Source: Pampinifervens florentissimum (GTDB taxonomy: Bacteria; Aquificota; Aquificia; Aquificales; Aquificaceae). Taken from it: a stretch of DNA of 32,000 nt. This document shows, piece after piece, positions 21,421 to 22,658 of this stretch. The number at the start of each line of letters is the position of its first letter. Positions within the stretch are counted from its first letter, which is position 1. The stretch lies in the NCBI RefSeq assembly GCF_011006175.1, contig NZ_CP048795.1, forward strand, positions 1,737,092-1,769,091, written 5' to 3'. Below the pieces are notes generated by a model. That model was not told the origin of the DNA and made no database searches. It saw only the letters and a program-made list of their open reading frames with translations. A program made the position numbers and the translations under genes.

Positions 21421-21548
21421 GCATCCCTAGGTTCATCTTGGGGGGTGTCATGCCTTCTGTTAAGGGATAAGCCTTTAGCCCTGATAGTGGTAATGGGGCA
21501 TGCCTTTTTAGGCTTGACCTCTCATAGGATAGTGGGCGGAGGTGAAAA
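21421..21548 (+). ncRNA. candidate bridge RNA / left-end non-coding region of the IS110 element
   Basis: Placed by position, by analogy to IS110/IS621. Long stem CATGCC (21449-21454) / GGCATG (21497-21502) with internal loops. GATAGTGG repeated at 21483-21490 and 21528-21535. Confidence 0.3.
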
Positions 21549-22615
21549 ATGTTATACATTGGAGCGGACATTAGCAAGGACAAGGTTAGTGTAGCCTTTG
21601 CAAGAAAAGGACAGTTTTTACTAAGCAAGGAGTTTGCCATATCAACCGAAGACCTGAACCTGATAAGATTAACCATACACCAGACTGGAGAAAGGAAAAT
21701 AACCGTATTCTTGGAACAGACGGGAATTTATTCCTTTCCAGTTATATCCTTCCTATGGGAACTGAGAACACAGGGCTACGAAGTAAGCATAAGGCTGGTA
21801 GACGGGCTGAGATTTCATAGATACATAAAGCTGTATGGAGAAAAGAAAACGGACAAAAAGGACGCAGTTAGCCTAGTAAAGTATGGAATGGAAGGGCTAC
21901 CCACGAGGGAGCTGACCGAGAGTGATATAAGAGTATACTGGCTAAAGTGGTTAATCACAGAAAGAGAAAAGCTGATAAAAGAGAGGACTATGATACAGAA
22001 CTTTTTGAGGCAGAAGATAGAGGTGTTATATCCAGACATGAAACAATACAATAAGACCCAGTTTTGGAGTAGGGTTCTCAATTACGATTTTGTCAAGGAA
22101 AAGAGCATAACGGGAATACTATACACAGGGCTACTGAAAAGGGATATAGAGAGGATAAGGCTAATAAACAAGCAAGTGGAAGAAGTAGAGGAGGACATAA
22201 AGGACTTCATAGAGACATACCACAGGGAAGACACTGAAATACTCAGAAGTTTTGGATTCTCATATATAACATGTGCCTACCTAATAAGCGTATACATCAA
22301 TGTGGAGAGGTTTCCAGATGTCAAAAGGTTTAAGAGTTATATGGGTTTAGGTCTCAGAGTGCATCAGTCAGGAAAGAAGGAGAAAAACGTAGTAAACAAC
22401 TACACGAACAAGTTAGTGAGAAAGCTGATATACATGTATGTCATACAAGCCATCCGAGAGAGGTCCAACCACAAAAGGGTTAAGGAATACTTCCTGAGAA
22501 TTAAGGAAAGAGAACAGTCAGCGAAAAAGGCAGTCTATAAAACTGCCAGCAAGGTCATAGAATGGGTTTATTACTGTCTTAAACATAAGGAAAAATTCAG
22601 TCAGGAGGATAGACA
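21421..22615 (+). mobile_element. IS110-family insertion sequence (ends approximate)
   Basis: Intact DEDD recombinase preceded by a 128-nt structured non-coding segment. The right end is placed where the family-typical C-terminus ends and the next gene starts. Confidence 0.45.
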
Positions 22616-22658
22616 TGAGACACAACAGGCAAACACTTGCCAAACTAATAGCCAATAG
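21549..22658 (+). CDS. IS110-family DEDD transposase/recombinase
   Basis: N-terminal YIGADISKDK, EQTGIYS, KTDKKDA (DEDD RuvC-like domain). C-terminal Transposase_20-type SYMGLGLRVHQSGKK with the catalytic Ser. Confidence 0.88.
   Translation: MLYIGADISKDKVSVAFARKGQFLLSKEFAISTEDLNLIRLTIHQTGERKITVFLEQTGIYSFPVISFLWELRTQGYEVSIRLVDGLRFHRYIKLYGEKKTDKKDAVSLVKYGMEGLPTRELTESDIRVYWLKWLITEREKLIKERTMIQNFLRQKIEVLYPDMKQYNKTQFWSRVLNYDFVKEKSITGILYTGLLKRDIERIRLINKQVEEVEEDIKDFIETYHREDTEILRSFGFSYITCAYLISVYINVERFPDVKRFKSYMGLGLRVHQSGKKEKNVVNNYTNKLVRKLIYMYVIQAIRERSNHKRVKEYFLRIKEREQSAKKAVYKTASKVIEWVYYCLKHKEKFSQEDRHETQQANTCQTNSQ

What the first reader, a model, noticed from the sequence alone, without database searches (positions are those of the whole stretch)
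21421..22658. Intact IS110-family DEDD recombinase with a structured upstream non-coding segment (bridge-RNA candidate), next to the prophage
All DEDD and Ser motifs are intact. IS110/IS621-type recombinases are known to be programmed by a bridge RNA encoded in the non-coding end upstream of the gene.

Here the 128 nt upstream contain three features.
- A long stem (21449-21454 with 21497-21502) with internal loops.
- A duplicated 8-mer GATAGTGG (21483-21490 and 21528-21535).
- A short GCC-TTTTTA-GGC hairpin.

The ORF tail reads 44 nt into the next gene (HU-like), which places the right end near 22610. The element sits 0.7 kb from an integrase-less filamentous prophage. It could be an unrelated IS or the recombinase that mobilises or integrates the phage, following the Neisseria Nf precedent.
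Basis: partly seen in the sequence, partly recalled or inferred. Interest (0 to 1): 0.6.

Follow-up and report, generated by a model that had tools for sequence, protein, structure and literature searches.

The report
Filamentous prophage's bridge-RNA integration module
The supposed insertion sequence is really the integration module of the adjoining 9.2-kb filamentous prophage: an IS110-type recombinase plus a 171-nt two-loop "bridge RNA" whose loops spell out both the phage ends and the exact host start codon where the phage sits, so this virus seems to pick its landing site with a re-programmable RNA guide.

Summary
The ORF 21549-22658 is an intact IS110-family DEDD/Ser recombinase. Its best PDB fold matches are the IS621 and ISCro4 bridge recombinases.

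It is not a separate IS. It is single-copy, and it is syntenic with the inovirus genes in every relative found.

Prophage-free genomes of the same genus show that the inserted unit is 21039-30211 (9,173 bp). It is flanked by an AT core at the ATG of a host gene.

The RNA lies at 21373-21543. It folds into two stem-loops, each with an internal loop: 59 pairs, 11 of them compensatory, and 0 of 500 shuffles reach the observed covariation.
- First loop: 9 nt equal the left host flank, and 7 nt complement the right host flank.
- Second loop: 9 nt equal the prophage right end, and 7 nt complement its left end.
- This is the IS621 geometry.

Across seven insertions in three clades the target loop co-varies with the flanks. 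One insertion (L027) is mismatched. Right junctions predicted from two guides were then found. The guide-specified 16-mer occurs once, at the empty site, in a prophage-free relative.

All of this is computational. RNA expression and recombination are untested.

IS110 transposases in inoviruses (Nf, Thermus phiOH16) and bridge RNAs are each known. I found no paper joining them.

Earlier agents of this scan reached the same reading on this same window.

The parts
21028..21036 (+). Left target (LT), GTATAGTCC: host DNA directly left of the core, part of the host gene's -10-like region
   Evidence: Identical to the 5' side of the first RNA loop at 21401-21409. Continuous with 30212 onward in the prophage-free genomes G024 and G019.
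21037..21038 (+). Core dinucleotide AT, left copy (attL)
   Evidence: The empty site in G024 and G019 has a single AT. The window has AT at both junctions.
21039..21372 (+). Left end of the prophage, containing ORF 21049-21420 (123 aa, no family hit). The start ATCCTAT (with the core, 21037-43) is the right-donor (RD) site.
   Evidence: The reverse complement of ATCCTAT equals AUAGGAU in the second loop. The left-end start resembles that of relatives. The 96% relative L026 has different DNA left of 21366.
21373..21543 (+). Bridge RNA candidate, 171 nt, in two stem-loops.
- First stem-loop: stem 21373-98 with 21440-67.
- Target loop: 5' side 21399-21410, with LTG at 21401-09; 3' side 21428-39, with RTG at 21430-36.
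- Second stem-loop: stem 21471-81 with 21534-43.
- Donor loop: 5' side 21482-94, with LDG at 21484-92; 3' side 21522-33, with RDG at 21524-30.
   Evidence: RNAalifold consensus. Covariation counts. Column-to-coordinate mapping. Guide-versus-flank matrix. Covariance model R1 finds one copy in the genome.
21549..22658 (+). IS110-family DEDD/Ser recombinase (bridge recombinase), 369 aa
   Evidence: Pfam PF01548 and PF02371. AlphaFold model with pLDDT 82.7; top Foldseek hits are IS621 (8wt9, 8wt6; E about 1e-13) and ISCro4 (9t56). Single copy.
22615..22827 (+). Short HU-like DNA-binding protein (70 aa) overlapping the recombinase tail. Possible architectural cofactor (inferred).
   Evidence: PF00216, E 4.8e-7. 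Present directly after the recombinase in all relatives at 48-81% identity.
22820..23158 (+). Conserved 112-aa ORF of the same module, function unknown
   Evidence: tblastn gives 43-97% identity in all relatives. No Pfam or PHROG hit.
23159..23673 (.). Phage intergenic control region between the convergent modules. It has a G+C-rich hairpin at 23497-23562 and two short blocks about 90% conserved (23284-23323, 23393-23428).
23674..29196 (-). Inovirus morphogenesis and structural genes:
- Zot/pI ATPase, 23674-24750.
- 78-aa, 704-aa, 135-aa, 68-aa and 176-aa envelope or minor-coat proteins.
- 69-aa major-coat-like protein, 28158-28367.
- 93-aa and 42-aa ORFs.
- Gene-V-position ORF, 28783-29196.
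   Evidence: Pfam PF05707 and phrog_197. ORF list. Gene-by-gene synteny with relatives.
29237..30109 (-). Rolling-circle replication initiator (Rep)
   Evidence: PF23343, E 1.5e-12; phrog_3584 and phrog_3419.
30110..30211 (+). Right end of the prophage. It contains two palindromes (30131-54, 30160-81), TTGACA at 30189-94, CATAAT at 30200-05, and the left-donor (LD) site ATAGTGGT at 30204-11.
   Evidence: LD plus the first core base equals AUAGUGGUA in the second loop. The right-end architecture is conserved in relatives.
30212..30218 (+). Core AT (right copy, 30212-13) plus the right target: ATGAACC, the start codon of a host HEPN-like gene
   Evidence: The reverse complement equals GGUUCAU in the first loop. 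The empty site is seen in G024 and G019.

Best explanation
The recombinase and the RNA upstream of it form the lysogeny module of the 9.2-kb inovirus prophage at 21039-30211.

Proposed mechanism:
1. The circular double-stranded replicative form of the phage plays the part of the IS110 'circular intermediate'.
2. Its right-end/AT/left-end junction is the donor site.
3. The 171-nt bridge RNA binds that junction with its second (donor) loop.
4. It binds a 16-nt host site, GTATAGTCC-AT-GAACC, with its first (target) loop.
5. The DEDD/Ser recombinase exchanges strands at the AT core.
6. The phage is thereby inserted between the -10-like box and the ATG of a host gene.

Shown here by sequence comparison:
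- The element boundaries and the empty site.
- The conserved, covarying two-loop fold.
- The four guide/site matches in the IS621 strand geometry.
- Their co-variation with different targets in relatives.

Inferred, not shown:
- That the RNA is made and bound by the recombinase.
- That this copy is still active.
- That a promoter spanning the junction of the circle (TTGACA, 16-17 nt, TAT|YCT) drives the left-end ORF, the RNA and the recombinase.
- That the right end's -10-like hexamer, 6 nt before the ATG, keeps the displaced host gene expressed.
For: Boundaries:
- In G024 and G019, window position 21038 abuts 30212 with a single AT.
- The recombinase gene is single-copy and the RNA is single-copy.

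Phage linkage:
- The order recombinase, HU-like gene, ORF112, Zot ... Rep is kept in L023, L025, L027, L028, L030 and G068.
- Protein identities are similar across the whole element: recombinase 53-57% (41% in G068), Zot 67-69% in L023/L025/L027/L028/L030 and in the G068 N-terminal fragment (57% in its C-terminal fragment), Rep 46%.

Fold:
- 59 pairs, with 98.5% of cells paired.
- 11 pairs have changes on both sides, and 0 of 500 shuffles reach this.
- Slid controls give at most 60% paired.

Guides in the window:
- LTG matches the left target over 9 nt.
- RTG complements the right target over 7 nt.
- LDG matches the right end over 9 nt.
- RDG complements the left end over 7 nt.
- The 5' sides equal the top strand and the 3' sides complement it, as described for IS621 (PMC11208160).

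Co-variation:
- LTG against its own left flank matches 9, 9, 8, 4, 10, 10 and 10 nt.
- LTG against other elements' flanks matches at most 7 nt.
- LDG and RDG change together with the ends between clades: ATAGTGGT/ATCCTAT versus ATGGTGGT/ATTCTTT.

Predictions fulfilled:
- The RTG of the Hydrogenobacter relative predicted ATGCAAT. The right junction was then found at G068:C5:5901.
- The RTG of L022 predicted ATGAGAT. The junction was found on G093:C56, next to Rep.

Uniqueness: the 16-mer target has one perfect match in G024, exactly at the empty site, and none in the lysogen.

Protein: the top PDB fold matches are IS621 and ISCro4 in complex with bridge RNA.
Against: - There are no expression, binding or recombination data. 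Everything rests on sequence comparison of a small family: nine RNA sequences in three clades, some of them closely related.
- One relative (L027) sits at a site that matches its guides poorly, with longest shared runs of only 4 nt for each guide (about 5 of 9 and 6 of 8 positions by eye).
- The position of the left-target match relative to the core differs by one nucleotide between elements. In the window, L022 and L023 the LTG does not pair with the core AT.
- No Rfam family matched.
- The IS621-type 5' stem-loop is not evident.
- In the window the RNA lies 334 nt from the core, behind an extra ORF, so the junction-promoter idea is weaker here.
- In some relatives the recombinase carries a frameshift (L030) or a stop (G093). 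At least some copies are therefore decaying.
Confidence: 0.87

Rival explanations
1. This is an ordinary, autonomous IS110-family insertion sequence (about 1.2-1.6 kb, right end near 22610) that happens to lie beside an integrase-less prophage.
For: The gene has the two IS110 Pfam domains. IS110 elements often sit in or near other mobile DNA.
Against: - The recombinase gene is single-copy.
- The same gene order with the phage genes is found in all relatives.
- No junction is seen near 22610. The HU-like gene that overlaps the tail is conserved with the recombinase.
- The donor-loop guides match 21037-43 and 30204-12, not anything near 22610.
- The empty site removes the whole of 21039-30211.
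Confidence: 0.02
2. The module is phage-borne and once worked as described, but this copy is a fossil. The prophage is fixed in place and the RNA or recombinase is no longer expressed or active.
For: - The L030 recombinase is frameshifted and the G093 copy has an in-frame TAA.
- The adjacent host gene is itself a degraded stub.
- The element was found in only 1 of 25 genomes of the genus searched.
Against: - In the window the recombinase ORF is full length with all five catalytic residues.
- All stems of the RNA are intact.
- All four guides still match their sites perfectly.
- All phage genes are open.
- A 93-96% identical element is present in hot-spring metagenomes with a differently programmed target loop (L026). 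This argues for a recently active lineage.
Confidence: 0.1
3. Integration is protein-guided, by the recombinase alone or with the HU-like protein. The short identities between the upstream region and the junctions are leftovers of recombination or chance, not RNA guides.
For: All target sites share a generic AT-rich -10-like box plus ATG. Some similarity between sites and between guides is therefore expected (off-diagonal matches of up to 7 nt).
Against: - The matching segments sit exactly in the single-stranded sides of two covariation-supported internal loops.
- The 5' sides are in sense and the 3' sides in antisense, as in IS621.
- They change with the target while the surrounding stems stay constant.
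- Two junctions were predicted from the loops before being found.
Confidence: 0.03

Closest known systems
IS621 / IS110-group bridge-RNA recombination (Durrant et al. 2024, PMC11208160; structures 8wt6-8wt9; ISCro4 9t56)
   Same: - DEDD RuvC-like domain plus a Ser-containing C-terminal domain.
- RNA encoded upstream of the recombinase in the left end.
- Two stem-loops with internal loops, the target loop first and variable, the donor loop second and conserved.
- 5' loop sides equal 8-10 nt of the top strand; 3' sides complement 7 nt.
- A 2-nt core is present at both junctions.
- No terminal inverted repeats.
   Different: - The donor is a complete 9.2-kb filamentous phage genome, not a 1.5-kb IS.
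- The core is AT, not CT.
- The element is single-copy.
- Targets are the -10/ATG junctions of host genes, not REP-like repeats.
- No separate 5' stem-loop is seen.
- The register of the left-target guide varies.
- An HU-like gene is conserved with the recombinase.
- Sequence identity to IS621 is only about 18%.
Neisseria filamentous prophages Nf1-4 / MDAphi with an IS110-family (Piv/Irg-type) transposase
   Same: An inovirus that lacks a tyrosine or serine integrase and carries an IS110-family transposase at one end of the provirus. The transposase is thought to integrate the phage site-specifically (as cited in PMC11437467 and PMC7058167).
   Different: I found no guide RNA reported for them in the searched library. 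Their target is the dRS3 repeat, not a start codon. No detectable sequence relation was tested here beyond family level.
Thermus filamentous phages phiOH16 / Zuza8 / Zuza27 (PMC11437467)
   Same: Thermophile inoviruses with an IS110-family transposase, and with proviruses bounded by that gene. There is a 208-nt non-coding stretch upstream of the phiOH16 transposase.
   Different: The paper places the junction between the transposase and the endonuclease gene, which is a different geometry. My quick look for guide-like repeats in phiOH16 was inconclusive.
Expanded, cargo-carrying IS110 elements (bioRxiv 10.64898/2026.08.14.744561)
   Same: IS110 boundaries can enclose many kilobases of plasmid- or phage-like DNA.
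   Different: That work describes accretion of cargo around an IS. Here the recombinase and RNA are a long-standing, co-diverging part of one virus family.
XerC/D-dependent integration of CTXphi-type inoviruses
   Same: Filamentous phages without a classical integrase that insert site-specifically.
   Different: Those phages borrow host tyrosine recombinases and a folded ssDNA site at dif. This phage encodes its own DEDD recombinase and a guide RNA.

Membership tests
IS110-family bridge recombinase system (IS110 group, IS621-like) | [quoted passage not shown] | tested here: met
   E 7.8e-17 and 1.3e-11, both above the curated cut-offs. D7, E56, D102, D105 and S274 align with the IS621 catalytic positions.
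IS110-family bridge recombinase system (IS110 group, IS621-like) | Fold like the solved bridge recombinases | tested here: met
   The model has pLDDT 82.7. The top ten PDB matches are IS621 and ISCro4 chains, with E 1e-13 to 5e-12 and TM 0.47-0.59.
IS110-family bridge recombinase system (IS110 group, IS621-like) | Non-coding RNA in the left end, upstream of the recombinase, with two stem-loops each bearing an internal loop | tested here: met
   Consensus fold of 8 sequences: 59 pairs, 11 compensatory, 0 of 500 shuffles. The model also finds a third clade at 56.7 bits.
IS110-family bridge recombinase system (IS110 group, IS621-like) | The first loop pairs with the target and the second with the donor. 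5' sides pair with the bottom strand (8-9 nt) and 3' sides with the top strand (4-7 nt). | tested here: met
   The four matches are 9, 7, 9 and 7 nt in the expected orientations. The own-versus-other matrix supports them, and two predicted junctions were found. Caveat: in three elements the left-target guide does not cover the core.
IS110-family bridge recombinase system (IS110 group, IS621-like) | Short core present once in the empty site and at both junctions after insertion | tested here: met
   The core is AT: single in G024 and G019, and at 21037-38 and 30212-13 in the window. IS621 uses CT.
IS110-family bridge recombinase system (IS110 group, IS621-like) | Compact (about 1.5 kb), usually multi-copy insertion sequence | tested here: not met
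   The unit is 9,173 bp with 15 or so phage genes, and it is single-copy. It works like an IS110 element but is a phage, not an IS.
IS110-family bridge recombinase system (IS110 group, IS621-like) | The RNA is expressed, from a promoter rebuilt across the circle junction, and is bound by the recombinase | not testable with these tools
   By eye only: TTGACA (30189-94), 16 nt, then TAT|CCT across the reconstructed junction. The same arrangement, with a 17-nt spacer, is seen in relatives.
IS110-family bridge recombinase system (IS110 group, IS621-like) | Match to a curated RNA family | tested here: not met
   No Rfam 15 hit in the region, even at E up to 10. I do not know whether Rfam holds a bridge-RNA family.
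Inovirus (Tubulavirales) prophage | Zot/pI-type morphogenesis ATPase, rolling-circle Rep, small coat proteins, genome of 5-15 kb | tested here: met
   PF05707 at E 7e-19 and phrog_197 at E 1e-39. PF23343 at E 1.5e-12. A 69-aa protein with a signal peptide and membrane-spanning segment, as in major coats. Length 9.2 kb.
Inovirus (Tubulavirales) prophage | Produces filamentous ssDNA virions | not testable with these tools
   No data are available.

The most novel reading that the evidence does not exclude
A family of hot-spring filamentous phages establishes lysogeny with a self-encoded bridge RNA. In this reading the phage's circular replicative form is the donor. The RNA's target loop has been naturally re-programmed, lineage by lineage, to the -10/ATG junction of different host genes (HEPN-like, purS, a ferredoxin-type gene and others). 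The phage's right end supplies a replacement promoter-like box, so the displaced gene stays expressed. This would be a natural case of a virus using an RNA-guided recombinase for integration, and a thermostable bridge system with an AT core and a native 9-kb cargo.
Probability: 0.7. Interest if true: 0.85.

Novelty: new variant of a known kind. Interest (0 to 1): 0.74.

Why it matters
Bridge RNAs were described in 2024 for minimal insertion sequences. IS110-type transposases have been noted in filamentous phages since 2005 without a known targeting rule. This locus joins the two.

It gives a concrete, testable rule for how such phages choose their integration sites, namely the loop sequences. 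It also explains why close relatives sit at different genes.

It shows natural re-programming of a bridge RNA target loop within one virus family.

It offers a thermophilic bridge recombinase with a natural 9-kb donor, a different core (AT) and a longer right-target guide (7 nt). It also suggests a tidy 'promoter swap' at host start codons.

Tried and rejected
The contigs of the closest protein relatives were reached through the search for related loci and the genome search instead.
- Rfam scans, at gathering thresholds and at E up to 10, gave nothing in the RNA region. They gave only microRNA-like noise on the G+C-rich hairpin at 23497-23562.
- A plain MAFFT alignment misaligned the Hydrogenobacter RNA. 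The covariance model placed it instead.
- The palindromes at 30131-54 and 30160-81 were rejected as attachment sites because they lie inside the right end.
- I looked for the left end in the 854 bp upstream of L026 and did not find it.
- I tried to extend the idea to cultured phages, without a clear result:
  - Thermus phiOH16 has 208 nt upstream of its transposase, but I found no convincing guide/junction repeats.
  - Oral Inovirus D_HF35_23 has only 33 nt upstream. Any RNA there must lie elsewhere.
- The idea that TTGACA in the right end is the -35 box of the right end's own -10-like hexamer was dropped, because the spacing is only 5-6 nt.
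Full report
**The gene**

The ORF 21549-22658 encodes a 369-aa protein with both IS110 domains: PF01548 at E 7.8e-17 and PF02371 at E 1.3e-11. In an alignment with its seven closest homologues, and in the phmmer alignment to IS621, D7, E56, D102, D105 and S274 take the places of the IS621 catalytic residues. 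An AlphaFold model (pLDDT 82.7) finds the IS621 and ISCro4 bridge recombinases as its ten best PDB matches, with E 1e-13 to 5e-12.

**It is not a separate insertion sequence**

- The gene and its DNA occur once in the 1.8-Mb single-contig genome.
- No close copy exists in the other 24 genomes of the genus. Only three of the other 177 genomes of the phylum searched have a relative.
- Close relatives come from hot-spring metagenomes, IMG/VR, two Thermocrinis MAGs, and one genome of another genus of the family (G068). The one named copy of G068's protein is annotated Hydrogenobacter hydrogenophilus.
- Wherever enough DNA is present, the recombinase is followed by the same HU-like gene and 112-aa ORF.
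- These are followed, convergently, by Zot/pI, the coat and adsorption genes, the gene-V-position ORF and Rep. That is the gene order of the window from 21.5 to 30.1 kb.
- Protein identities are similar along the element: recombinase 53-57%, Zot 67-69%, Rep 46%. The recombinase has therefore diverged together with the phage.

**Boundaries**

- In the prophage-free genomes G024 and G019 of the same genus, window position 21038 is directly followed by 30212.
- The empty site reads GTATAGTCC-AT-GAACCG with a single AT.
- The window has AT at both junctions (21037-38 and 30212-13).
- The inserted unit is thus 21039-30211 (9,173 bp).
- The insertion point is the ATG of a host HEPN-like gene, a few bases after a -10-like box.
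- In the relatives the junctions have the same form. The left flank ends in a TATAAT-like box plus 3-7 nt.
- The element then begins AT-TCTTTTATAC. It ends ...TTGACA-N6-TATAAT-GGTGGT-AT, followed by G and a host ORF.
- The host ORF is purS in L023 and L028, a ferredoxin-type gene in L027, and other genes in L030 and G093.

**The RNA**

The region upstream of the recombinase is conserved at about 70% DNA identity between clades, starting at about 21374.

- RNAalifold on eight sequences gives two stem-loops, each with a large internal loop and an inner hairpin.
- Counting pairs gives 59 pairs with 98.5% of cells paired, and 11 pairs with changes on both sides.
- No shuffle out of 500 reaches the observed covariation.
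- Sliding the partners by 1-3 columns drops pairing to 42-60%.
- In window coordinates the RNA is 21373-21543.
- Its last stem contains the recombinase's Shine-Dalgarno-like GGAGG.
- A covariance model built from it finds the Hydrogenobacter copy (56.7 bits). It finds nothing in distant IS110 loci.
- The model hits the own genome once, and in the family it hits only genomes that carry the recombinase.

**The guides**

| Loop side | Window position | RNA sequence | DNA site | Relation |
|---|---|---|---|---|
| Loop 1, 5' side (LTG) | 21401-09 | GUAUAGUCC | left host flank 21028-36 | identical |
| Loop 1, 3' side (RTG) | 21430-36 | GGUUCAU | ATGAACC, 30212-18 | reverse complement |
| Loop 2, 5' side (LDG) | 21484-92 | AUAGUGGUA | prophage right end plus first core base, 30204-12 | identical |
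| Loop 2, 3' side (RDG) | 21524-30 | AUAGGAU | core plus left end, ATCCTAT, 21037-43 | reverse complement |

This is the geometry reported for IS621. There the 5' sides pair with the bottom strand over 8-9 nt, the 3' sides pair with the top strand over 4-7 nt, the target loop comes first and is variable, and the donor loop comes second and is conserved (PMC11208160).

One copy is the left-donor guide. The other is the end of the right-donor guide plus a constant AGUGG that is also present in relatives whose donor guide differs.

**Co-variation with targets**

The stems flanking loop 1 are nearly invariant, while the loop sides differ between elements.

- Against its own left flank the LTG shares 9, 9, 8, 4, 10, 10 and 10 nt. 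The order is window, L022, L023, L027, L028, L030 and the Hydrogenobacter element.
- Against other elements' flanks it shares at most 7 nt.
- The RTG shares 7, 7, 4, 5 and 7 nt with its own right flank.
- L023 and L028 sit at the same purS start but behind different upstream sequences. Their LTGs differ accordingly.
- Between clades the donor guides change together with the ends: ATAGTGGT/ATCCTAT in the window versus ATGGTGGT/ATTCTTT.

Two predictions were tested.

- The Hydrogenobacter RTG predicted a right flank beginning ATGCAAT. A pattern search found the right end plus that flank on another contig that carries Rep and the structural genes.
- The L022 RTG predicted ATGAGAT. The only hit in that genome lies right after a phage right end next to Rep.

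Finally, the 16-mer specified by the window's guides has exactly one perfect match in G024, at the empty site, and none in the lysogen.

**Likely mechanism**

- The phage's double-stranded replicative form supplies the donor junction (right end, AT, left end).
- The RNA bridges it to the host site, and the recombinase exchanges strands at AT.

Three further points are inferred from sequence alone.

- In the reconstructed circle, TTGACA in the right end lies 16-17 nt from a TAT|YCT hexamer spanning the core. That hexamer lies 7 nt from the ATG of the left-end ORF. This would be a junction promoter of the kind described for IS110 circles.
- After integration, the host's own -10 box faces the left end.
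- The right end places a (C/T/G)ATAAT hexamer 6 nt before the displaced host ATG. That spacing resembles the reconstructed attB sites: 6-7 nt in the window, L023, L027 and G068, and 3 nt or ambiguous in L028 and L030.

The conserved HU-like protein may be an architectural helper. This is speculation.

**Open points**

- L027's guides match its site poorly. This could be an off-target event or later drift.
- The left-target match ends at the core in L028, L030 and the Hydrogenobacter element (8 nt plus AU). It ends one base earlier in the loop frame in the window, L022 and L023 (9 nt, core unpaired). I have no explanation for this.
- No RNA, binding or recombination data exist.
- Some relatives have a damaged recombinase (L030 frameshift, G093 stop).

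**Literature**

IS110-family transposases at the end of filamentous proviruses are known for Neisseria Nf and for Thermus phiOH16 and the Zuza phages, and are thought to integrate them (PMC11437467; PMC7058167). Bridge RNAs are known for IS110 elements (PMC11208160). A 2026 preprint shows that IS110 boundaries can enclose large cargo. Searches combining bridge RNA with filamentous, inovirus, prophage or Neisseria found no paper that describes a bridge RNA in a filamentous phage. The library is incomplete, so this is not proof of novelty.

**Earlier notes of this scan**

These were read only after I had formed my own reading. Follow-up agents working on neighbouring findings in this same window reached the same conclusion (e1-3788418, e1-3788419). 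They are not independent evidence.

**Tool note**

Noticed in passing
window 30212-30768: The host gene at the insertion point is a degraded HEPN-like stub. It is in two frames and about 142 bp shorter than in G024. An intact nucleotidyltransferase (MNT-like) ORF follows it.
   Followed up: partly
window 23159-23673: This is the phage intergenic region. It has a very G+C-rich hairpin (23497-23562), which gave spurious microRNA hits. It also has two short blocks (23284-23323, 23393-23428) that are about 90% conserved in relatives otherwise about 70% identical. They are candidates for an origin or packaging signal.
   Followed up: no
L024 (IMG/VR contig, 5212 bp): This contig is a mosaic. The recombinase (95% aa), ORF112 (97% aa) and the gene-V-position ORF (88% aa) are close to the window's; the HU-like protein is 81%, and this stretch is 93% identical at DNA level. 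Zot is only 26% identical and the structural block is unrelated. This suggests module exchange between inoviruses.
   Followed up: partly
L026:1-854 versus window 21039-21365: The 96% identical relative has different DNA left of the RNA: a PAPS-reductase-like ORF and a 155-aa ORF in place of ORF123. The similarity breakpoint is at window 21366. Its target loop also differs at several positions in both guides. The left-end arm therefore carries variable cargo.
   Followed up: partly
G068:C5 (L128) 5511-6447 and 9397-10335: The Hydrogenobacter genome has a second right-end remnant 3.9 kb downstream of the prophage: a Rep 5' fragment plus a right end with a window-like ATAGTGGT donor site. It is followed by the same roughly 0.5-kb 'right flank'. 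This could be a relic of another phage at a duplicated target.
   Followed up: partly
L030:10423-10428; G093:C135: The recombinase is frameshifted in L030 and has an in-frame TAA in the G093 copy. Some prophages of the family are decaying.
   Followed up: no
window 21534-21551: The 3' strand of the donor-loop outer stem contains the recombinase's GGAGG ribosome-binding sequence, 5 nt before the ATG. Folding of the RNA could occlude translation initiation.
   Followed up: no
protein P0001: The closest homologue (93%) is labelled as coming from an Archaeoglobaceae MAG, on a 7.2-kb contig. This is probably a phage contig binned to the wrong organism.
   Followed up: no
L126 (Inovirus D_HF35_23, OR148983.1) and L127 (Thermus phage phiOH16, LC210520.1): Other inoviruses carry IS110-like transposases. 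The oral phage has only 33 nt upstream of the gene, while phiOH16 has 208 nt. Whether they encode guide RNAs is open.
   Followed up: partly
window 30160-30181 and equivalent sites in relatives: The palindrome ATTATGA-TTTAGG-TCATAAT, just inside the right end, is conserved in form in the relatives (ATATGA-TTTAGG-TCATAT). It may be an operator.
   Followed up: no
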